This document shows positions 10,593 to 16,376 of a stretch of 64,000 nt of DNA, one piece after another. The notes under the pieces were generated by a model. That model was not told where the DNA came from. It searched no databases and worked only from the letters and a program-made list of their open reading frames with translations. The DNA is from Trueperaceae bacterium (GTDB lineage Bacteria > Deinococcota > Deinococci > Deinococcales > Trueperaceae). Every line of letters starts with the position of its first letter. Position 1 is the first letter of the stretch. Location of the stretch: assembly GCA_034520945.1 (NCBI GenBank), contig JAXHNB010000002.1, forward strand, positions 160,001-224,000. The letters are read 5' to 3'. The position numbers and the translations under genes are program-made.

Positions 10593-10804
10593 TCAGGACC
10601 GAGCCGTGATCGTCGAGACGTCGTATGGCATCACGGCTGGGTCGTGCGTCACTACGGTCAACCCCTCCGTGCGAGCTTGGGCGACCAGCATGCGATCGAA
10701 GGGATCGCGATGGTGGTTCGGCAGGTTCCCAACGGCCAACGCATGCTCGCTGGTGACGTCGAGCGGCGTGAAGCGGTAGTGCGCGAGCATCGCGAGGTAG
10801 TCAC
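10593..10804 (-). pseudogene. vapC: VapC/PIN toxin, N-terminal half missing
   Basis: LPNHHRDPFDRMLVAQARTEGLTVVTHD present; the LLDTH N-terminus is absent and the GTG overlapping the antitoxin stop is out of frame. Confidence 0.75.
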
Positions 10805-11049
10805 GCGGCGCGGCCTTCAACGGCGTCCAAGACGTCGTCGGGGAGGGGCGCGTCGAAGTCGTCAGCGATGGCGATGCGTCCCGCCCAATAGCCGTGCGAC
10901 AGATCGCGGGGACGGTCGTCGGCCTGAACCACGCTCAGGCGCACCAGTGGGCGCCCGGCGCGGGCGATGACCACCTCCTCGCCGGCCAGCGCTTGGTCGA
11001 CGAGGCGCGAGAGTTTCGCCTTCGCTTCGGTAATGTTGACGATCCGCAT
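10801..11049 (-). CDS. Phd/YefM family antitoxin
   Basis: VNITEAKAKLSRLV...GEEVVIARAGRPLVRL...IADDFDAPLP; RBS GGAGG. Confidence 0.9.
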   Translation of the reverse strand: MRIVNITEAKAKLSRLVDQALAGEEVVIARAGRPLVRLSVVQADDRPRDLSHGYWAGRIAIADDFDAPLPDDVLDAVEGRAA

Positions 11050-11092: not shown

Positions 11093-11671
11093 TCATGGCG
11101 CAGCTTCGCCCGGGTCGCCGCCGGTCACTTGGGCGAGGGCGTCCTGGTGGACCGCCAGGTCGCGCGCCGTGAAGAGCACGAACCGGACCAACCGCACGTG
11201 CTGCAGGTTGAGCGCGACGTCGGCGATCGTGCCGAGCGCCACGTGCGCGGCGTCCTCGACCGGGTAGCCGAACGCGCCGGTCGAGATGGCCGGAAACGCG
11301 AGCGACGACATCTCCTTCTTCTCGGCCAAGCGCAACGCATTGCGGTAGCCCTCAGCCAGGAGCTCGTCGCTGGGCGTGTCCAGCCCGTATACGGGGCCGA
11401 GCACGTGAATCACGTAGCGATTGGCGAGCCCATGCCCACCGGTCACGACCGCTTGGCCCGGCCGGATGGGGCCCAGCGGCACGGCCTCCGCTTCGAGCCC
11501 GGATCCCGCCGCCCGATGAATCGCGCCGGCCACGCCCCCGCCGATGCGCAGTTGCGCGTTGGCGGCGTTCACCACGGCGTCCACGTCCGGTTGGCGGACG
11601 ATGTCGCCTTGGACGAGTTCGACGTGGACCCGTCCGAACGTCCGGCTGGTGGGTGTTGGTGACTGTGCCAT
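11093..11671 (-). CDS. Macro domain protein (ADP-ribose binding/hydrolase, YmdB-like)
   Basis: QGDI, DAVVNAAN, GGGVAGAIH, VIHVLGP and FPAISTGAFGYP motifs. Confidence 0.9.
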   Translation of the reverse strand: MAQSPTPTSRTFGRVHVELVQGDIVRQPDVDAVVNAANAQLRIGGGVAGAIHRAAGSGLEAEAVPLGPIRPGQAVVTGGHGLANRYVIHVLGPVYGLDTPSDELLAEGYRNALRLAEKKEMSSLAFPAISTGAFGYPVEDAAHVALGTIADVALNLQHVRLVRFVLFTARDLAVHQDALAQVTGGDPGEAAP

Positions 11672-11800
11672 GGGGACCTCCGTCCCTCAGCGTAGCGCCG
11701 AAGCGCGGGTCCCACGCGTCTCCTGCGAGGCCGTCCAAGACCGGAGATGAGCCATGTTGTCGCGTTTGGGACGGCTCCGGGGGTGGGACGAATTTCCCTG

Positions 11801-11828
11801 TTGGCGCGCGGTGTACCCCCGGTAGCGT
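11801..11828 (+). promoter_or_regulatory. Candidate promoter of the exported copper/heme operon
   Basis: TTGGCG-16 nt-TAGCGT about 180 nt upstream of ATG 12007. Confidence 0.35.
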
Positions 11829-12006
11829 TCCTGTGTACGCCTGATGAGGAGCCTTGCATCGGCAGCGCGCTCCGGGCGTTCGGGCCTGCGACCCGTAACG
11901 GTCATCACTGGGTTCGGAAAGGAGGGGTTCTGGAGGACGTCGTGTCGTTTCCAGAAGCAACAACGCACACGCTGTCAATGCAATGCCCACTCGAAGGGAG
12001 TCCGCA

Positions 12007-12513
12007 ATGAACCGATTCGTCAAGACCATGACGGCGCTCGTCGCCGCCACTACGCTCCTCGGCGCCGCCTGGGCCCAAGGCTTGGGGGAAGACCTCACCG
12101 TCCGCATGGGCGAGATGTACTTCCAGATCGAAGGTCAGGAAAAGAACGCGCCGATCGAACTCGAAGCCGGCGTGCCCTACCGCATCACTTTCGTCAACGA
12201 AGGCGACGTGGAGCACCGCGTCAAGTTCGGCCGTAGCGTCGAGGCCGAAGAAGGCGTCCCCTTCGACTACGCCGAGCACCTGTTCGACGGGGTGTTCACG
12301 CGCGCGACCGGCATGGCCGGCAACCGGCAATTCTCGGTCGACACCGGTCAGCTGCTGGAGCTCGACGTGCAGCCCGGTGCCGTGGTGCTGGTCAGCTTCA
12401 CGTTGCCGACCTCCACGCGGGGCGAGTGGGAGATCGGCTGCTTCGTCCCCGCGACGCGTGACACGCCGAACCACTACATCGCCGGCATGCGCGCTCCGCT
12501 CATCATCGAGTGA
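12007..12513 (+). CDS. Exported cupredoxin with type-1 Cu ligand set
   Basis: Sec signal ending AWAQ; NEGDVEH, then GEWEIGC-FVPATRDTPN-H-YIAG-M (His/Cys/His/Met). Confidence 0.8.
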   Translation: MNRFVKTMTALVAATTLLGAAWAQGLGEDLTVRMGEMYFQIEGQEKNAPIELEAGVPYRITFVNEGDVEHRVKFGRSVEAEEGVPFDYAEHLFDGVFTRATGMAGNRQFSVDTGQLLELDVQPGAVVLVSFTLPTSTRGEWEIGCFVPATRDTPNHYIAGMRAPLIIE

Positions 12514-12545
12514 CGTCGCATACCACAAAACGAACGGGAGAATTC

Positions 12546-13904
12546 ATGATGAAGGTACGCATTTTCATTCTCAGCCTGAGCATCGCCGCCTTGGCAATGT
12601 TCGGCGCCGCTACGGCGCAGGACGACGGCGACTGGGCCACCGAGTGGTCCGACATGGTCAACGTGCACCTGTTGGCCGACCTCGATTCCTCCGGTCCGCC
12701 CGCGTGGGATCCCGAAGAGCACCCGGACGTGTTCATCACCACCGAGGGCATGGGCTACTCCGGCCTGATGGGCTCGCCCAACTCGCCCGGCCTGGCGATC
12801 ATCGACGCCAACACCTACGAGCCCGTCGCGTCGCAGAGCTACGAGCTGGAAGGCGCCGACGAGTACTTCGAGCCGCACGGCCTGGGCGTCTCGTCCGACG
12901 GCCGCTGGATCTACCTGCCGACCGGCACCAGCCCCGGCTTCGGTGCCGTGGGGACCGGCCGCTTGCTCATCATCGACGCCTACACGCTCAAGATCGACAA
13001 GATCCTCTCCACGCCTACCAACCCCCACCACGCCAAGAGCTTCACCCACGCCGATGGGCGCGAGCTGGTGTTGGCCTACACCTTCCGTGAGGGTGGGTTC
13101 TACATCCTCGACCCCAACGACGACAACCGCATGGTCGGGAGCGTCCCCAACCGCGAGCTGCAGGGCAACGGCTATCTCGCCTTCACCACCCCCGACGGGG
13201 AGTACCTGCTGATCAGCACGCGTCCCCCCTCCGGCGTGGACGCCCACGGGTTCGTGTCGGTCATCGACACCGAAACCTGGGAGCTGGTCCGCAACATCGA
13301 GGTGCTGGACTCCGATCCCATCTGGATCGCCATCACCGCCGACGGAAACGAAGCGCTCGTGACGGGCGGGCACGACAGCAACCTGACGCGCCTGTCGCTC
13401 GAAGGGGACGTCTCCGACTGGCACGTCGACGGCGCCGCCAACGCGGCCGCGCTCGGGCCCTACGGCGTGCACTACAACTGGGACGAGGACCGCGCGTTCG
13501 TGGTCAGCAAGGGCGAAGCCACCCACAACCGCGGCATCACCCTCGGCGAGGTGAACCCCGTCATCATGCAGCCTCCGCCCCTGCACTCCTGGGCGCCGGG
13601 TCCCGTCGCCACGCACCACACCGCTTGCATCCGTGGCGACCACGGTACCGTGCACCCGGACATCGACCGGGACGAGCTGTGGATCACCTGCAACGGTAGC
13701 TTCGAGATCGTCGTGTTCGACATGTTCGCCAAGGAGGTCAAGGAGCGCATCCCCATGCCGAACGGGGGCAGCACGCACTCCGGCGCCTTCGTTCACTACG
13801 AGGCCGACCCGATGGCGTCGACCGAAGGCACCGTCCTGTCGGACCAGAACGGCATGCACGGTCCCGCACTGCAGACCAAGCGGGAGATCCTCGGTCTCGA
13901 ATAG
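12546..13904 (+). CDS. Exported YVTN/YncE-like beta-propeller protein, His-rich, function unknown
   Basis: Signal ending ATAQ; repeated blades EPHGLGVSSDGRWIY, YLAFTTPDGEYLL, VSVIDTETWELVRNI, PIWIAITADG and GPYGVHY. Confidence 0.75.
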   Translation: MMKVRIFILSLSIAALAMFGAATAQDDGDWATEWSDMVNVHLLADLDSSGPPAWDPEEHPDVFITTEGMGYSGLMGSPNSPGLAIIDANTYEPVASQSYELEGADEYFEPHGLGVSSDGRWIYLPTGTSPGFGAVGTGRLLIIDAYTLKIDKILSTPTNPHHAKSFTHADGRELVLAYTFREGGFYILDPNDDNRMVGSVPNRELQGNGYLAFTTPDGEYLLISTRPPSGVDAHGFVSVIDTETWELVRNIEVLDSDPIWIAITADGNEALVTGGHDSNLTRLSLEGDVSDWHVDGAANAAALGPYGVHYNWDEDRAFVVSKGEATHNRGITLGEVNPVIMQPPPLHSWAPGPVATHHTACIRGDHGTVHPDIDRDELWITCNGSFEIVVFDMFAKEVKERIPMPNGGSTHSGAFVHYEADPMASTEGTVLSDQNGMHGPALQTKREILGLE

Positions 13905-13919
13905 ACCGGCGGAACGCTC

Positions 13920-13945
13920 GGTGGGGAGGCGCGCGCCTCCCCACC
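13920..13945. repeat. Perfect 26-bp intercistronic palindrome/stem-loop
   Basis: GGTGGGGAGGCGC|GCGCCTCCCCACC; no U-tract. Confidence 0.8.
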
Positions 13946-13968
13946 CCCTTCGGAGGGAGTCCAGCACC

Positions 13969-14571
13969 ATGACCACGAGTTCCTATGTTCGTGTCGCGAT
14001 TCTTGCCCTCTTGATGCCGTTCGCGTTCCTTGCGTCGGCGCAGGAGGAGGCGCCCGACCCGGAGTTGGTCAAGCGCGGGCAAGATCTTTACTACAACGTG
14101 GCCGGAACGGGCTGCGTCACCTGTCACGGCGTCGCGGGCCTCGGCGACATCGGCATCGGCCCGAACATCCGCGGCGTGCCGGTGGTCCGCATCGAGGGCG
14201 CTCTGGATGCTGCCGAGGAGATGGCGTTCCTGCATCCGGTGCTCAGCGAGGACGACCTGGTGGCGCTGGAGGCCTACCTGGCGTACGTCGAAACCCTCGT
14301 TCCCGCCACGACCACCGTACGCGGTGGTGCGTTCCAACCCGACGAGGTCAGGTTGCCTGCCGGCCAGCAGGTGCAGTTGATCGTCGACAACGGAAACCGC
14401 TCACCCTGCACCTTGGTCGTCGACGGTGTCGACGTGCAGGCCACCATCGACGGGCGCAGCACCGGCGACGTGTCGTGGACCACCGGCAGTGCCGGTACGC
14501 AGACCGTGGCCTATTGCCAGGACGAGCCCGACGTCCAACTCACGGTTCGCATCGTCGAACCCGAGGAGTGA
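13969..14571 (+). CDS. Exported monoheme cytochrome c fused to a cupredoxin-like domain
   Basis: Signal ending ASAQ; RGQDLY...CVTCHG...IGPNIRG...EM; C-terminal FQPDEVRLPAGQQVQLIVDN. Confidence 0.85.
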   Translation: MTTSSYVRVAILALLMPFAFLASAQEEAPDPELVKRGQDLYYNVAGTGCVTCHGVAGLGDIGIGPNIRGVPVVRIEGALDAAEEMAFLHPVLSEDDLVALEAYLAYVETLVPATTTVRGGAFQPDEVRLPAGQQVQLIVDNGNRSPCTLVVDGVDVQATIDGRSTGDVSWTTGSAGTQTVAYCQDEPDVQLTVRIVEPEE

Positions 14572-14575
14572 GACC

Positions 14576-15586
14576 ATGACGAGCCTGACGCGACGACTGG
14601 CGGGCCTCCTGATCGTGGTCGCCCTGGTGATGGGCGCTGCGATCGCACAGGACGACCATTCGGACGACGGTGAGGCGGAAGCCCTCACCATGAACGAGGC
14701 CATGCAGATGCTCACGCGCAGCGGAAGGGTGCCGCTGGCCGACGAGCACGACCACGACCAGATTCACGTCGACGTGCTGTACGCGCACCCGATCGTGTAC
14801 CGCTCGGGCGGCAACGAAGTGCCCGAGGCGGTGTACGAGGGCGACGAAGTGATCGTGTTCGTCACCGAGAACATCCACGCCGGCGAGTTCAGCTGGGATC
14901 CGGTCAAATTCGACCTGTACGTCGACGGGCGCGGCCCCATCGCGCCGGTGCGGTCCGAACAGGTGTCGCCCGACCCGCACCACCGCGCCACGCGGCACCA
15001 TTACCGCCTGGAGGAGGGCGAGGGCCCGCTATTGCGCAGCGACAGCTCGCGCTTGGAGCTGCGGCCCCAGGCCGGCAGCAGCAAGGCCGAGTTCGCGTGG
15101 GATCTCCCGCTCGAACTGGGCGAGGTGCGCTTCCACGGCCTCGAACCCACCGATGAGCCCCTCGACCTGAGCGACGCGCCGGTGTTGCGCGTCGAAGCGA
15201 CCGAAGACACCTACGTGCACTCGGGCCTCGTGGTGCCGGTGGGCGAGCCCGTCGTGGTCTTGTTCCGCAACGACACCGACGACGAACACCATTTCCACGT
15301 CCTGGACCTCGCCATCGACGGCACCATGCGCTGGCTCCAGACCGCGGGCGAGGCCGACCTGTTCACCGACGCCGAGCTGCGCCAGGCCACCCAGCTGCCC
15401 GACCACATCTGCGACAGCGACAGCGGCATCTGCCCCACGGGGCAGAGCGTGCACCTGCACGCCAACCCCCACGGGTCCGATGCGATCGCCTTCGTGCCGA
15501 AGGAGGTCGGCACCTTCGAGGTGGTGGACCCGCTGTTCCCGGAGCGGAGCGCGGAGTTCGAGGTCGTCGCCGGGGACGCTGGCTGA
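14576..15586 (+). CDS. Exported His-rich two-domain protein with cupredoxin-like C-terminus (putative metal chaperone)
   Basis: Signal ending AIAQ; DEHDHD, ENIH, DPHH, NDTDDEHHFH, HICDSDSGICP, HLHANPH, FVPKEVGTFEV. Confidence 0.65.
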   Translation: MTSLTRRLAGLLIVVALVMGAAIAQDDHSDDGEAEALTMNEAMQMLTRSGRVPLADEHDHDQIHVDVLYAHPIVYRSGGNEVPEAVYEGDEVIVFVTENIHAGEFSWDPVKFDLYVDGRGPIAPVRSEQVSPDPHHRATRHHYRLEEGEGPLLRSDSSRLELRPQAGSSKAEFAWDLPLELGEVRFHGLEPTDEPLDLSDAPVLRVEATEDTYVHSGLVVPVGEPVVVLFRNDTDDEHHFHVLDLAIDGTMRWLQTAGEADLFTDAELRQATQLPDHICDSDSGICPTGQSVHLHANPHGSDAIAFVPKEVGTFEVVDPLFPERSAEFEVVAGDAG

Positions 15587-15633
15587 CGCAACGCACGATG
15601 GCGCCCCTGCTCGCACCAGCGCGAGCGATCCAA

Positions 15634-15670
15634 AGCGACCTGCGTAGGGACGGTTTCTGCGCAGGTCGCT
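15634..15670. terminator. Hairpin between convergent genes
   Basis: Perfect 11-bp arms AGCGACCTGCG / CGCAGGTCGCT. Confidence 0.55.
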
Positions 15671-16376
15671 ATCGTTCGTCGTCGAGCGATTCGAGGTCGG
15701 ATGCTCGGGGTGCGGTCGAGCGCCATTGTGCGAAGGGGACGCCCACGGTGTCCCGACTCACCATCACGGCCGGGCGAGTGTCGAGGCTGGCCAGCCACGA
15801 CCCGAGACGGGGCAGGTCGGTGTCGGGCAGCCCGAAGCGCCGGTAGCCGGACAGCCACGCGTACACGCAAACGTCGGCGGCGGAGGGTCCAGGAAGGTCA
15901 GGGGCTGCCACGATCCATCGGCCGCCGGACCGCTCGAGCGCCTCTTCGACGGCATGTAGATGCCGGCGCCCCTCCGCGAGCAGGGTCTCCGCGCGGACGT
16001 GATCGATGCCCGCCTCAGGCGGCTCGATCAACTGCCAGTACAGGTGATGGCTGACGTCCCGAAGGGGACCGCTGGACCAGTCGATCCACGTCAGGACGTC
16101 ACGGCGGGCGCGTTCGTCGGCGGGAAATGAGCGTGGTTCGGGATGGGCCACCTCGAGGTGCAGCAGAATGTCCAGCGAGTCCAGGTGGGCGCCGTCCTCA
16201 TCGAAGTAGGCAGGGACCTTTCCTCGGGGATTCAGTGCGAGGTAGGCGGCCGTCTTTTGCTCCCGGGTCCTCAGGTCGATCTCGACACGGTCGAACCGCA
16301 CGCCCTTTTCGTGCAGGGCGATGGATACCTTGAAGCAGTGCGGGCTCCGGCGCGAGCTGAACAGCGTGGGGCGCAT
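15669..16376 (-). CDS. Glutathione S-transferase family protein
   Basis: SPHCFKV...LHEKG, LNPRGKVP, DSLDIL and SAADV motifs; start uncertain. Confidence 0.85.
   Translation of the reverse strand: MRPTLFSSRRSPHCFKVSIALHEKGVRFDRVEIDLRTREQKTAAYLALNPRGKVPAYFDEDGAHLDSLDILLHLEVAHPEPRSFPADERARRDVLTWIDWSSGPLRDVSHHLYWQLIEPPEAGIDHVRAETLLAEGRRHLHAVEEALERSGGRWIVAAPDLPGPSAADVCVYAWLSGYRRFGLPDTDLPRLGSWLASLDTRPAVMVSRDTVGVPFAQWRSTAPRASDLESLDDER

What the first reader, a model, noticed from the sequence alone, without database searches (positions are those of the whole stretch)
12007..15586. Candidate undescribed exported copper/heme redox enzyme system (four-gene operon)
Seen: four co-directional genes, all with Sec signals, encoding a type-1 cupredoxin, a 452-aa His-rich beta-propeller, a CxxCH cytochrome-cupredoxin fusion and a His-rich protein, closed by a hairpin. 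Known: propeller Cu enzymes (NosZ, thiocyanate dehydrogenase, methanethiol oxidase) work with cytochrome/cupredoxin partners and Cu chaperones. This propeller has no CuA domain or heme c, and no nosDFY, nirFED, mauG or qhp genes are adjacent, so I cannot assign it to a described pathway. Inference: catalytic propeller, two electron carriers and a Cu loader acting on an unknown small substrate.
Basis: partly seen in the sequence, partly recalled or inferred. Interest (0 to 1): 0.88.

Follow-up and report, generated by a model that had tools for sequence, protein, structure and literature searches.

The report
Unnamed copper propeller enzyme operon
Four exported proteins are built around a histidine-lined propeller protein from a widespread family that nobody has studied; it is probably a new kind of copper enzyme wired to a cytochrome, but its substrate is still unknown.

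Summary
Window 12007-15586 (+) carries four tightly spaced genes with Shine-Dalgarno sites and Sec-type leaders, closed by a 17-bp hairpin: g1 a type-1 cupredoxin, g2 a 452-aa seven-bladed propeller, g3 a cytochrome c fused to a Cupredoxin_1 domain, g4 a His-rich two-sandwich protein.

g2 matches no Pfam, NCBIfam or PDB family. It fails the tests for NosZ, for clade III L-NosZ (NF052460) and for thiocyanate dehydrogenase by sequence. Its family is real and widespread: 312 database clusters and 80 loci, all MAGs, in at least ten phyla. H111, H161, H162, H366, H411, K322 and D365 are invariant.

Only g2+g3 is conserved, in 60 of 80 loci, and the two are fused in some taxa. Relatives add a DsbD-type membrane protein whose periplasmic domain is homologous to the g4 N-domain, plus SCO1, PCuAC and YtkA-like genes. 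No metal has been measured.

Best reading (0.55): a new family of periplasmic copper propeller oxidoreductases that works like NosZ or TcDH but belongs to neither. Substrate and direction are unknown. An alternative N2O/NO reductase is possible (about 0.15).

The parts
11994..12000 (+). Shine-Dalgarno-like AAGGGAG, 6 nt before the g1 ATG
   Evidence: It supports the 12007 start over the upstream ATG at 11983 listed.
12007..12513 (+). g1: exported type-1 (blue) cupredoxin, 168 aa
   Evidence: ORF. The motifs NEGxxxH ... GCF ... HY..GM are conserved across 6 homologues, with Met replaced by His in 2 of them. No Pfam or NCBIfam hit. A 41%-identical paralogue lies on contig C10 of the same genome.
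12546..13904 (+). g2: exported 7-bladed propeller of an unnamed family, the putative catalytic copper subunit, 452 aa
   Evidence: H111, H161, H162, H366, H411, K322 and D365 are invariant in all 81 sequences that have a residue at the site (one main-clade ORF reads X at 111, one sister-clade ORF has a gap at 411). H327 is kept in 78/81, E324 in 79/81, H59 in 69/81, and the C361/C382 pair in 55/59 of the main clade only.
13920..13945 (+). 11-bp G+C hairpin in the g2-g3 spacer
   Evidence: z is only -1.44, so it is not above what this composition gives. Possibly a processing or stability element; not followed further.
13969..14571 (+). g3: exported mono-haem cytochrome c (GCVTCHG plus a conserved Met) fused to a Cupredoxin_1-like domain, 200 aa
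   Evidence: Pfam; a 36-sequence alignment; fused to the propeller in proteins of 619-702 aa (sequences).
14576..15586 (+). g4: exported His-rich protein of two beta-sandwich domains, 336 aa. The N-domain carries TENIH and DPHHR. The C-domain is Cupredoxin_1-like and carries EHHFH and HxCDSxSGxCPTG..VHLHA.
   Evidence: The N-domain is homologous to the periplasmic domain of the ~470-aa DsbD_TM protein of related clusters.
15634..15670 (.). 17-bp stem, 3-nt loop hairpin between the convergent g4 and GST-like genes; a likely bidirectional terminator

Best explanation
The operon encodes a periplasmic copper/haem redox enzyme of a protein family that has not been described.

Proposed mechanism. 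The four apo-proteins are exported by Sec. g2 folds into a seven-bladed YVTN/lactonase-type propeller. Its hub is lined by invariant histidines that sit at the start of the inner strands or in a top loop (H111, H161, H162, H327, H366, H411, perhaps H59), with K322, E324 and D365 beside them. I infer that this hub binds a polynuclear copper centre (2-4 Cu), as the hubs of NosZ and thiocyanate dehydrogenase do, and turns over a small molecule that enters the funnel. Electrons pass between this centre and the respiratory chain through the haem c of g3 and its Cys-bearing cupredoxin-like domain. In this lineage they also pass through the blue copper protein g1. g4 and, in other organisms, the DsbD_TM fusion protein, SCO1, PCuAC and YtkA-like proteins load or maintain the copper sites.

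Shown: gene structure, fold, family conservation, gene neighbourhood and fusions. Inferred: copper in g2, the electron path, and the role of g4.

Substrate and direction are open. I lean slightly to reduction of a small N-oxide under low oxygen (about 0.35 of the mass), against oxidation of a reduced S or N compound (about 0.30) and something else (about 0.35).
For: (1) Fold. The AF2 model has pLDDT 87.2. VIA-align finds 7-bladed propellers: 1l0q Z 32.9, lactonases Z about 30, hydrazine synthase beta Z 28.5, NosZ 2iwf Z 26.8 with 331 residues aligned, TcDH 5f75 Z 25.9 with 332 aligned.

(2) A real, constrained family. 312 clusters at E<=1e-3, none with a functional name. 95 representatives at E<=1e-30. 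80 genomic loci. Five His, K322 and D365 are invariant in all 81 sequences with a residue at the site, across two clades that are only about 33% identical.

(3) Redox coupling. A g3 homologue is found in 60 of 80 loci. Natural fusions of propeller + cytochrome c + Cupredoxin_1 exist (sequences). In a thaumarchaeal locus the partner is the cupredoxin-like domain alone.

(4) Copper logistics in the neighbourhood. An N-domain+DsbD_TM protein occurs in 40 of 80 loci, always co-directional, with a weak PpoB2 'copper chaperone' hit. SCO1 occurs in 10 loci, plus 3 with a longer form. PCuAC and HMA occur once each among the 12 loci annotated. YtkA-like proteins form two clusters, in 13 and 12 loci.

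(5) Weak profile-profile similarity to the NosZ propeller (Prob 60.8, E 8.2e-5). Our PHH blade lies on the blade of NosZ H159. In a longer, weaker alignment E109-P-H111 lies on the NosZ D-x-H-H.

(6) The g3 cupredoxin-like domain shows a swapped ligand pattern, either C...C-x-x-[DE] or H...C-x-x-C. This suggests a real thiolate metal site (read from the alignment).

(7) Context that leans towards low-oxygen or N-oxide use. GAF/PAS HisKA_3 kinases with NarL-type regulators sit upstream in 12-14 loci, and Fnr/FixK-like regulators in 2 of the 12 annotated loci. DsrP/NrfD- and DsrO/NrfC-like quinone modules occur in the sister clade. The own genome has two nirK and no nosZ.
Against: No metal has been measured and no coordinates were available to me. 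That the conserved His cluster in space is inferred from their place in the blades, not seen.

The own genome lacks the DsbD_TM partner, the second propeller and PCuAC; it has one SCO1, which lies far from the operon.

Structural similarity is higher to metal-free YVTN proteins and lactonases than to NosZ or TcDH. The profile hit to TcDH is only E 0.1.

The NosZ similarity is weak (Prob 38-61) and could come from repeat-like propeller blades.

g3's Cupredoxin_1 hit is 0.3 bits under Pfam's cut-off, and the domain lacks a classical copper ligand set.

Links to N metabolism are loose. Among 50 genomes with the family, NirK or NirS was found in 22 and NosZ in 5. All are MAGs, many are kin, and there was no matched control set.
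Confidence: 0.55

Rival explanations
1. g2 is a functional N2O (or NO) reductase of a fourth type. It would hold a CuZ-like copper(-sulfur) cluster in the hub. The CuA domain of NosZ would be replaced by the separate or fused cytochrome c/cupredoxin-like module g3. The cluster would be assembled without NosDFYL.
For: Seven conserved His, the same number as the invariant His of the NosZ propeller in alignment A2. Weak collinear similarity to NosZ blades 1-4. Own genome: nirK x2 over cut-off, no NosZ, no L-NosZ. Of 22 Nir-positive genomes among the 50 searched, 21 gave no NosZ hit, including 8 of 8 NirS genomes. NarX/NarQ-like and Fnr-like regulators lie nearby. Rhodanese is found in 5 loci and a class-V aminotransferase or Cys/Met PLP enzyme in 2; these could supply sulfur.
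Against: The His pattern differs from NosZ: there is no His in the blade that carries NosZ H330, no GPLH, and no DXHH. There is no CuA motif anywhere in the family (0 of 81, and 0 of 20 fused forms). 28 of 50 genomes have no Nir. The NosZ frequency of 5/50 is near the ~12% quoted for genomes at large in PMC13685413, so there is no clear exclusion. The genomes are MAGs and many are kin. Many carriers are aerobic lineages (recalled).
Confidence: 0.15
2. g2 is a dehydrogenase of the thiocyanate-dehydrogenase type. A trinuclear copper hub would oxidise a reduced sulfur compound (thiocyanate, a thiol, sulfide or similar), or a reduced nitrogen compound, and pass the electrons to cytochrome c (g3) and on to a terminal oxidase.
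For: The inventory of conserved residues (an HH pair, further His, Lys, Glu, Asp, and Arg in the main clade) resembles the TcDH active-site list K103, H135, H136, H206, E288, D314, H381, H437, H482, H528, R544 printed in PMC6504805. Fold match to 5f75: Z 25.9, 332 residues aligned. TcDH uses a cytochrome c as acceptor (PMC9456337 abstract start). Rhodanese is found in 5 loci; an ATP sulfurylase and a TauE sulfite exporter lie near single loci. Carriers are mostly aerobic marine, saline or groundwater lineages (record titles).
Against: Sequence similarity to TcDH is not significant (E 0.1) and in a different blade register. g2 has a Sec leader, not the Tat leader of TcDH (read; PMC6504805). The residue orders along the chain do not match. 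No CopCD or Cus genes are nearby. I could not obtain TcDH sequences for a profile comparison.
Confidence: 0.12
3. g2 is not an enzyme. It would be a periplasmic metal-binding propeller, acting as a chaperone or scaffold like the zinc chaperone AztD or the haem d1-handling NirF/NirN, that serves some other copper protein.
For: His-lined propellers can be metallochaperones (AztD, PMC6689063; only the search listing and abstract start were seen). NirN and NirF are among the Foldseek hits. The cluster is rich in chaperone-like genes.
Against: Fusion to a c-type cytochrome plus a cupredoxin-like domain (sequences) and quinone-module neighbours in the sister clade point to electron transfer. No obvious client enzyme is conserved in the clusters. 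Invariant Lys/Glu/Asp beside the His look catalytic.
Confidence: 0.08
4. g2 is the large subunit of a quinoprotein-type dehydrogenase, or carries a protein-derived cofactor of its own (for example a Lys-Tyr or Cys-linked quinone made with copper). It would pass electrons to a cupredoxin and a cytochrome c, as methylamine dehydrogenase does with amicyanin and cytochrome c551i.
For: The heavy chains of methylamine and aromatic amine dehydrogenase are among the best Foldseek hits, as complexes with amicyanin or azurin. Invariant K322, Y123, Y306 and W379, and a Cys pair in the main clade. A DsbD-type thiol-redox partner is present. The composition of the mau cluster is recalled, not tested here.
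Against: No small cofactor-bearing subunit and no MauG-like dihaem protein appear in the window or in the conserved neighbour clusters. The Cys pair is absent from the sister clade while the His set is kept.
Confidence: 0.05

Closest known systems
Nitrous-oxide reductase NosZ (clades I and II)
   Same: A periplasmic seven-bladed propeller with about seven conserved hub histidines. It needs a dedicated electron-entry module and copper chaperones. There is weak collinear profile similarity over blades 1-4, and the Sec leader is like that of clade II.
   Different: No CuA domain or motif. TIGR04246 scores 10.5 bits against a cut-off of 625. The His are distributed differently over the blades. No nosDFYL. 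The electron module is haem c plus an atypical cupredoxin-like domain.
Clade III lactonase-type NosZ (L-NosZ; He et al. 2025, Nature 646:152; NCBIfam NF052460)
   Same: A lactonase/YVTN-type propeller of 400-900 aa that lacks nosDFYL in its neighbourhood. Both show EPH and PHG-like motifs.
   Different: No NF052460 match to g2 at E<=1, nor to its locus at E<=10. No CuA motif, no GPLH, no D/GXHH in the window protein (criteria from the MiDAS preprint). The neighbours are cytochrome c/DsbD_TM/SCO1, not b-type cytochromes plus ABC/MacB transporters (PMC13685413). The original paper is not held.
Thiocyanate dehydrogenase TcDH (PDB 5F75, 8Q9X)
   Same: A seven-bladed propeller, 450-490 aa, with an HH pair, further His and Lys/Glu/Asp at a trinuclear copper hub. 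It has a cytochrome c partner and copper-handling genes nearby.
   Different: Sequence similarity is insignificant (E 0.1). Sec rather than Tat leader. Different copper-handling genes (SCO1/PCuAC/DsbD_TM rather than CopCD/Cus). The residue order is not superimposable from sequence.
Methylamine / aromatic amine dehydrogenase with amicyanin or azurin and cytochrome c
   Same: The same three-part logic: propeller subunit, cupredoxin, c-type cytochrome. The fold is similar.
   Different: No TTQ-bearing small subunit and no MauG. The MADH propeller carries no metal hub (recalled).
Methanethiol oxidase / selenium-binding protein family (MtoX, SELENBP1)
   Same: Propeller fold (2ece, Z 26.4, 332 residues aligned). 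That this enzyme is copper-dependent and has SCO1 in its gene cluster is recalled, not tested.
   Different: No sequence or Pfam relationship.

Membership tests
NosZ (TIGR04246 / TIGR04244 type N2O reductase) | Matches the NosZ HMM above its cut-off | tested here: not met
   g2 against TIGR04246: E 0.13, 10.5 bits, cut-off 625. A whole-genome scan finds only CuA-type fragments of cytochrome oxidase subunit II genes.
NosZ (TIGR04246 / TIGR04244 type N2O reductase) | C-terminal CuA cupredoxin domain with CX2FCX3HXEM | tested here: not met
   The motif is absent from g1-g4, from 81 of 81 family ORFs and from 20 of 20 fused forms of 560 aa or more. It is present in 4 of 4 NosZ controls.
NosZ (TIGR04246 / TIGR04244 type N2O reductase) | Seven CuZ histidines in the blades carrying DXHH, xH, PHG, GPLH, GH, EPH | tested here: not met
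   g2 has seven conserved His but in another pattern: EPHG, PHH, a loop His (KGExxHN), GDH, STH, EHP. Where NosZ has H330, g2 has I259. DXHH and GPLH occur in 0 of 81.
NosZ (TIGR04246 / TIGR04244 type N2O reductase) | nosDFYL (and nosR or nosGH) accessory genes in the cluster | tested here: not met
   None in the window flanks, nor among the conserved neighbour clusters of 80 loci.
Clade III L-NosZ (NCBIfam NF052460) | Matches NF052460 above 700 bits | tested here: not met
   NF052460 is not among g2's NCBIfam hits at E<=1. An own-genome scan at E<=10 does not hit the g2 locus. 0 of 50 carrier genomes have a match over the cut-off.
Clade III L-NosZ (NCBIfam NF052460) | Motif filter of the discovery workflow as quoted in the MiDAS preprint: CuA motif, DXHH or GXHH, PHG, GPLH, EPH; length 400-900 | tested here: not met
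   g2 meets the length criterion and has PHG and EPH (one site, 109-112). It lacks the CuA motif, D/GXHH and GPLH.
Thiocyanate dehydrogenase | Significant sequence similarity to TcDH (5F75, 8Q9X) | tested here: not met
   No phmmer hit. The family profile gives E 0.1 over 125 columns in a shifted register.
Thiocyanate dehydrogenase | Active-site set K103, H135, H136, Q156, H206, E288, D314, H381, H437, H482, H528, D529, R544 | tested here: inconclusive
   g2 conserves a similar inventory (K322, E324, D365, R363, seven His). I had no residue-level structural superposition and no TcDH sequences (list from PMC6504805).
Thiocyanate dehydrogenase | Tat export | tested here: not met
   The g2 leader MMKVRIFILSLSIAALAMFGAATA-QD has no twin arginine (read).
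YVTN / lactonase-type seven-bladed beta-propeller (fold level) | Seven four-stranded blades, superimposable on 1l0q and 6-phosphogluconolactonases | tested here: met
   Z 32.9 (298 residues aligned, rmsd 2.4) and Z about 30. No Pfam propeller model reaches its cut-off.
Type-1 (blue) cupredoxin (g1) | His, Cys, His, Met ligand set on a cupredoxin scaffold | tested here: met
   The ligands are present in the window protein and conserved in its 6 homologues, with Met replaced by His in 2. The fold was not modelled, and PF00127 gives no hit.
Class I c-type cytochrome (g3 N-domain) | CxxCH plus a distal Met; PF00034 above cut-off | tested here: met
   24.6 bits against 21.3. GCxxCHG and the Met are conserved in at least 80% of 36 homologues.
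Cupredoxin_1 (PF13473) (g3 and g4 C-domains) | PF13473 above 27 bits | tested here: inconclusive
   g3 scores 26.7 bits and g4 19.1 bits. Homologues of g3 score 41 and 62.6 bits. The g4 model matches 4hcf with TM 0.76 normalised to the target.

The most novel reading that the evidence does not exclude
The propeller is a fourth, unrecognised type of nitrous-oxide (or nitric-oxide) reductase. It would hold a CuZ-like copper-sulfur hub, built without NosDFYL by a DsbD-type/SCO1/rhodanese route, and would be fed by a cytochrome c-cupredoxin module instead of CuA. It would be present in lineages (Woeseiaceae, Chloroflexota, Acidimicrobiia, Trueperaceae, some Thaumarchaeota) that are now scored as lacking N2O reduction.
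Probability: 0.12. Interest if true: 0.95.

Novelty: new variant of a known kind. Interest (0 to 1): 0.72.

Why it matters
Very few enzymes are known in which a propeller hub holds a multinuclear copper centre: NosZ, its clade III relatives and thiocyanate dehydrogenase. Each was a landmark for the nitrogen or sulfur cycle.

A third, sequence-unrelated family with the same building logic and its own copper-assembly genes would be a new bioinorganic site to solve. It occurs in abundant sediment, groundwater, marine and saline lineages. It would also be a process that genome-based element-cycle inventories currently miss.

If the substrate is N2O or NO, the budgets of 'truncated denitrifiers' would need revisiting. 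If it is a sulfur or nitrogen compound, a new dissimilatory oxidation would be defined.

All 80 loci found are from MAGs, so the family has escaped genetics. The compact four-gene version in this window is a convenient set for heterologous expression.

Tried and rejected
1. NosZ, L-NosZ and TcDH membership: tested and rejected.

2. The original L-NosZ paper (doi 10.1038/s41586-025-09401-4) is not held. I used secondary descriptions and the NCBIfam model instead. Its supplements, and the closed bioRxiv supplements, may hold reference sequences that I could not compare.

3. Complex prediction of g2 (26-452) with the g4 N-domain (26-195): score 0.11, mark 0.32, no verdict.

4. Sequencing runs: five holders from two studies (salt pan and sediment metagenomes). 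No RNA holder was listed and no reads were laid.

5. Rfam scan of 11600-15800: only a chance miRNA hit at E 0.86. Promoter scan: none found. Repeats in the 335-nt upstream spacer: nothing notable.

6. Earlier findings of this scan, searched by sequence: nothing.

7. ESM Atlas: only 'hypothetical protein' and generic YVTN clusters.

8. Literature searches for a description of this family found none. The terms were lactonase-type / nitrous oxide; novel bacterial protein family; L-NosZ; thiocyanate dehydrogenase / trinuclear copper; thiocyanate dehydrogenase + nitrous oxide reductase + beta-propeller + homologs. A family without a name is hard to search for, so this is weak evidence that nothing is in print.

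9. An apparently N-truncated copy in L004, from a genome that also has NosZ, looked like gene decay. It is cut by a run of 100 N, so no inference can be drawn.

10. The NirK-like gene next to the cluster in L002 is a two-domain multicopper oxidase, not NirK (TIGR02376 78 bits, cut-off 296).

11. A forced global hhalign against NosZ gave nothing.

12. I considered whether the DsbD_TM partner tracks the Cys pair of the main clade. It does not: it is found in 35 of 63 main-clade and 5 of 17 sister-clade loci.

30 of the 80 loci were left out: L013, L024, L035, L042, L045, L046, L051, L056, L057, L059 and L061-L080. No matched control genomes were searched.

Full report
OBSERVATION

- g1, 12007-12513, 168 aa
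- g2, 12546-13904, 452 aa
- g3, 13969-14571, 200 aa
- g4, 14576-15586, 336 aa

The spacers are 32, 64 and 4 nt, and each start has a Shine-Dalgarno-like run at the right distance. All four products start with a Sec-type leader that ends AxA-Q. I read this from the sequence; no predictor was available.

A 17-bp hairpin at 15634-15670 lies between g4 and the convergent GST-like gene. The 104-nt stretch folds with z -4.85, and 0 of 200 shuffles fold as well. The flanking genes are unrelated: a KduI/IolB protein, a class II aldolase, a truncated PIN with a Phd antitoxin, and a Macro domain protein upstream; a GST, an M19 dipeptidase and a peptide-binding protein downstream.

The region has a slightly lower G+C than its surroundings (0.66 at 12001-14000, against 0.70-0.73).

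THE FOUR PROTEINS

g1 has no Pfam or NCBIfam hit. With its six neighbourhood homologues it shares the ligand set of a blue copper protein: NEGxxxH, GCF, HY..GM. The Met is replaced by His in two of them.

g3 is a mono-haem cytochrome c. PF00034 scores 24.6 bits against a cut-off of 21.3, and GCxxCHG and a Met are conserved. It is followed by a Cupredoxin_1-like domain that scores 26.7 bits against a cut-off of 27. That domain lacks a classical copper site. It does show a swapped pattern across lineages, read from the alignment. Trueperaceae, Fraserbacteria and Acetothermia have Cys ... Cys-x-x-Asp/Glu. Proteobacteria have His ... Cys-x-x-Cys. This looks like a thiolate metal site that has exchanged ligands.

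g4 has 19 His. Its model (pLDDT 70.8) shows two beta-sandwich domains. The best Foldseek matches are multicopper oxidases with tandem cupredoxin domains, at low TM (0.25-0.31), and for the C-domain a copper-bound Cupredoxin_1 protein, 4hcf (TM 0.76 to the target). Four full-length homologues keep a C-P-[LI]-H loop typical of type-1 copper, three of them followed by a Met; the fourth sequence as extracted ends just after the loop. The window protein has D-P-L-F there. It keeps EHHFH and HxCDSxSGxCPTG..VHLHA.

THE PROPELLER

g2 has no significant hit in Pfam or NCBIfam, nor among PDB sequences with the single sequence. The family profile hits only YVTN-type propeller proteins (best E 5.9e-8) and TcDH at E 0.1.

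The AlphaFold2 model is confident (pLDDT 87.2, pTM 0.88). VIA-align against 48,161 chains gives seven-bladed propellers:
- the archaeal YVTN protein 1l0q: Z 32.9
- lactonases: Z about 30
- hydrazine synthase beta: Z 28.5
- NosZ 2iwf: Z 26.8, 331 residues aligned
- a selenium-binding protein: Z 26.4
- TcDH 5f75: Z 25.9

Foldseek ranks NirN, methylamine and aromatic amine dehydrogenase heavy chains, cd1 nitrite reductase, NosZ and TcDH together. The fold alone does not name a function.

THE FAMILY

The word-indexed search found 312 clusters at E<=1e-3. The top non-self hit is 73% identical. All are named 'hypothetical', 'YncE family' or similar. The exhaustive search of 50% representatives gave 95 hits at E<=1e-30 and 273 at E<=1e-10.

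The genome collection gave 80 loci, all MAGs by their titles. They come from Trueperaceae, Ca. Fraserbacteria, Ca. Acetothermia, Chloroflexota (Dehalococcoidia, SAR202, Anaerolineae, Limnocylindria), Acidimicrobiia, Acidobacteriota, Alpha-, Beta- and Gammaproteobacteria (many Woeseiaceae, also Arenicellaceae), Thaumarchaeota and a haloarchaeon.

I extracted 81 sequences: 59 of the main clade and 22 of a sister clade that is about 33% identical. Their conservation:
- H111, H161, H162, H366, H411, K322, D365, Y123, Y306, D189 and W379 are invariant in every sequence that has a residue at the site (one ORF reads X at 111, one has a gap at 411).
- H327 is kept in 78, E324 in 79 and H59 in 69.
- The only two cysteines of g2 (C361, C382) are kept in 55 of 59 main-clade sequences. 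In the sister clade they are Ala and Asn.
- R363 and N383 also switch, to Ser and Met.

By their place in the chain, H111, H161/H162, H366 and H411 sit at the start of the innermost strand of successive blades, and H327 sits in a top loop. That is where NosZ and TcDH carry their copper ligands. I could not see coordinates, so this is inference from the secondary structure.

WHAT IT IS NOT

NosZ. TIGR04246 gives 10.5 bits against a cut-off of 625.

CuA. The motif CX2FCX3HXEM is absent from all 81 family ORFs and from all 20 fused forms of 560 aa or more. It is present in 4 of 4 NosZ sequences that I fetched as controls.

Clade III L-NosZ. NCBIfam holds a model, NF052460 (480 positions, cut-off 700). 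It does not hit g2 at E<=1. It does not hit the g2 locus in a whole-genome scan at E<=10. No genome among 50 carriers has a match over the cut-off. The motif filter of the L-NosZ discovery workflow, as quoted in a preprint, is failed on the CuA, D/GXHH and GPLH criteria. The gene neighbourhood described for clade III is b-type cytochromes and ABC/MacB transporters (PMC13685413, passages), which is not what is seen here.

TcDH. There is no significant sequence match, and the leader is Sec rather than Tat.

A DISTANT LIKENESS TO NosZ

hhalign of the family against four NosZ sequences gives Prob 60.8, E 8.2e-5 over 158 columns. It puts our PHH blade on the blade of NosZ H159. With a looser setting (Prob 38, E 3.3e-4, 301 columns), E109-P-H111-G lies on the NosZ D-S-H-H, H162 on H159, and I259 on H330.

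This fits common ancestry of the blades and a related but different hub. It is weak evidence, and propeller repeats can align by chance.

NEIGHBOURHOOD

tblastn of the four window proteins on the 80 loci:
- A g3 homologue is found in 60 of 80, in most right after the propeller, and in a few of the sister clade several kb away or just upstream.
- g1 appears in 5 of 80: the Trueperaceae, Fraserbacteria and Acetothermia loci L001, L002, L003, L005 and L006.
- Full-length g4 appears in 4 of 80.
- Partial g4 hits appear in 34 of 80. Most cover residues 10-183 and fall in the N-terminus of a protein of about 470 aa.

Proteins of 619-702 aa join the propeller, cytochrome c and Cupredoxin_1 in one chain (sequences). 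In a thaumarchaeal locus the partner is a 175-aa protein with the cupredoxin-like domain but no cytochrome.

I called 1031 ORFs in the 80 loci with a simple caller of my own, which is rough in high-G+C DNA, and clustered them. The conserved neighbours are:
- The ~470-aa protein (N-domain plus DsbD_TM, with a weak PpoB2 'copper chaperone' hit): 40 loci, always co-directional; 35 of 63 main-clade and 5 of 17 sister-clade loci.
- Separate cytochrome c-cupredoxin genes: 22 loci.
- Cytochrome c alone: 9 loci.
- YtkA-like proteins: two clusters, in 13 and 12 loci.
- SCO1/SenC: 10 loci, plus 3 with a longer form.
- NarL-type response regulators: 14 loci.
- GAF/PAS HisKA_3 kinases: 12 loci.
- Rhodanese: 5 loci.
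- In the sister clade only, NrfD-like (5 loci) and 4Fe-4S (4 loci) proteins. NCBIfam relates these to DsrP/QrcD and DsrO/NrfC.

Among the 12 loci annotated in full, a second YncE-like propeller followed by SCO1 is seen in the proteobacterial loci (L014, L017, L021, L037, L052). PCuAC is seen once (L021), an HMA protein once (L014), and Fnr/FixK-like regulators twice (L005, L014).

The ~470-aa protein conserves T-E-x-x-H and H-H-R in its periplasmic domain. These are the same motifs as g4's TENIH and DPHHR. Its membrane part conserves PC, PxxC and GCxxCF.

THE WINDOW'S OWN GENOME

The genome is 3.47 Mb in 10 contigs, estimated 97% complete and 5% contaminated. It has one copy of the propeller. 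It has no homologue of the DsbD_TM partner, the second propeller or PCuAC, and one distant SCO1. The window therefore carries a minimal version of the system, in which g4 supplies the periplasmic His-rich domain without a membrane anchor.

The genome has two nirK genes over the cut-off, no NosZ, no L-NosZ and two haem-copper oxidases.

It belongs to the same family as the Trueperaceae chromosome CP070651. I infer this because G186 has the coordinates of L004 and L064.

The gene is patchy among relatives. It was found in 3 of 151 genomes of the order including this one, in 2 of 36 other genomes of the family, and in 0 of 3 of the genus. Together with the G+C dip, this suggests horizontal acquisition.

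Near-identical DNA occurs in salt-pan and sediment metagenomes of two studies.

CO-OCCURRENCE

I searched 50 carrier genomes, all from main-clade loci and all MAGs. The results:
- NosZ in 5.
- NirK in 14 at E<=1e-40, of which 9 are over the cut-off.
- NirS in 8.
- 22 therefore have a nitrite reductase, and only one of these (G024) also has NosZ.
- 28 have neither NirK nor NirS.

These numbers are compatible with a role that replaces NosZ, but they do not show it. The genomes are incomplete, many are close kin (six of the eight NirS genomes are Woeseiaceae or unclassified Gammaproteobacteria by their record titles), and I ran no matched controls.

HOW IT MOST LIKELY WORKS

I read the system as a periplasmic copper oxidoreductase.
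- A small substrate is turned over at a histidine-bound polynuclear copper hub in g2, helped by K322, E324 and D365.
- g3 is the fixed electron conduit (haem c, then possibly a thiolate copper site).
- g1 is an extra blue-copper shuttle in this lineage.
- g4, like the periplasmic domain of the DsbD-type partner elsewhere, handles copper, or thiol redox, for assembly.

Confidence in this class-level reading is about 0.55.

On direction, the regulators (NarX/NarQ-like GAF kinases, Fnr/FixK-like proteins), the quinone modules in the sister clade and the nirK-plus, nosZ-minus state of this genome tilt me slightly towards a reductase of an N-oxide. The TcDH-like residue inventory, the rhodaneses and the mostly aerobic carriers argue for an oxidising enzyme of a sulfur or nitrogen compound.

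Non-catalytic (chaperone-like) and quinoprotein-like readings remain possible but fit the cytochrome fusions and the conserved neighbours less well.

NOVELTY AND VERDICT

The building plan is known from NosZ and TcDH: a propeller with a multi-His copper hub, a cytochrome or cupredoxin partner, and dedicated copper chaperones. The family itself, its histidine pattern, its electron module and its assembly genes are not described in any library or paper I could search. I file it as a new variant of a known kind.

The 'undescribed copper/haem redox system' idea stands on indirect evidence. The four-gene unit is lineage-specific, and only propeller plus cytochrome-cupredoxin is universal.

Interest is 0.72. 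The finding is concrete and widespread, and biochemistry can test it directly. Copper, substrate and direction are all still unshown.

BASIS NOTES

Papers:
- PMC13477213: passages and supplement passages.
- PMC13122619, PMC13685413, PMC13274427, PMC6504805: passages.
- MiDAS preprint 10.64898/2026.07.10.737647: passages and section 20.
- PMC9456337 and PMC6689063: search listing and abstract start only.
- He et al. 2025: not seen.

Recalled, not from any call: CuZ is bound by seven His; the TcDH hub is trinuclear, with the roles its residues are said to play; the content of the mau cluster; MtoX/SCO1; the aerobic lifestyle of carriers.

Noticed in passing
window 10596-11049 (-): A Phd/YefM antitoxin gene followed by a PIN-domain ORF of only 75 aa. 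The ORF matches just positions 56-112 of the 120-position PIN model, so this is a truncated VapC-like toxin next to the operon.
   Followed up: partly
window 12001-14000, and the own order: G+C dips to 0.66 against 0.70-0.73 around it. The propeller gene is found in only 3 of 151 genomes of the order and 0 of 3 of the genus. The cluster looks horizontally acquired.
   Followed up: partly
window 13920-13945: An 11-bp G+C-rich hairpin in the g2-g3 spacer, just before the g3 ribosome-binding site. It is not above composition-matched shuffles (z -1.44).
   Followed up: yes
window 14576-15586 (g4), compared with L003, L006, L065, L066: The four full-length homologues have a type-1 copper loop, C-P-[LI]-H, followed by a Met in three of them. 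The window's g4 has D-P-L-F, so this copy has lost that site while keeping the other His/Cys motifs.
   Followed up: partly
G000 C6:270521-271399 and C2:102949-103860 (outside the window): There are two copper nitrite reductase genes over the TIGR02376 cut-off in a genome with no NosZ or L-NosZ. Whether the second haem-copper oxidase at C6:35983-37308 is an NO reductase type was not examined.
   Followed up: no
L036:9326-9850 (thaumarchaeal MAG): In the archaeal version of the cluster the partner is a 175-aa membrane-anchored cupredoxin-like protein (LHPIF ... YCLNTNCKTH) without a cytochrome c domain. The propeller there lacks the Cys pair.
   Followed up: partly
L061-L072, L074-L076, L079, L080 (sister clade), plus second copies in L026 and L078: A sister clade of propellers, about 33% identical, keeps the His/Lys/Asp set but swaps C361/R363/C382/N383 for A/S/N/M. 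It sits with DsrP/NrfD-like and DsrO/NrfC-like quinone-module genes. In some of these loci the adjacent cytochrome c is fused to a His-rich domain like the g4 C-domain. It may act on another substrate.
   Followed up: partly
L002:5487-7878 (Ca. Fraserbacteria MAG): Directly upstream of the propeller lie a two-domain multicopper oxidase and two g1-like cupredoxins. The oxidase is not NirK (TIGR02376 78 bits against a cut-off of 296). A rhodanese follows the DsbD_TM gene. A rhodanese appears in 5 loci in all.
   Followed up: partly
L004:7901-8000: A run of 100 N cuts the 5' part of the propeller gene in the complete Trueperaceae chromosome record, so the copy only appears truncated.
   Followed up: yes
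L005, L027, L036: DUF3179 proteins, one of them fused to a thioredoxin/AhpC domain, lie within a few kb of the cluster in three distant phyla. Their meaning is unknown.
   Followed up: no
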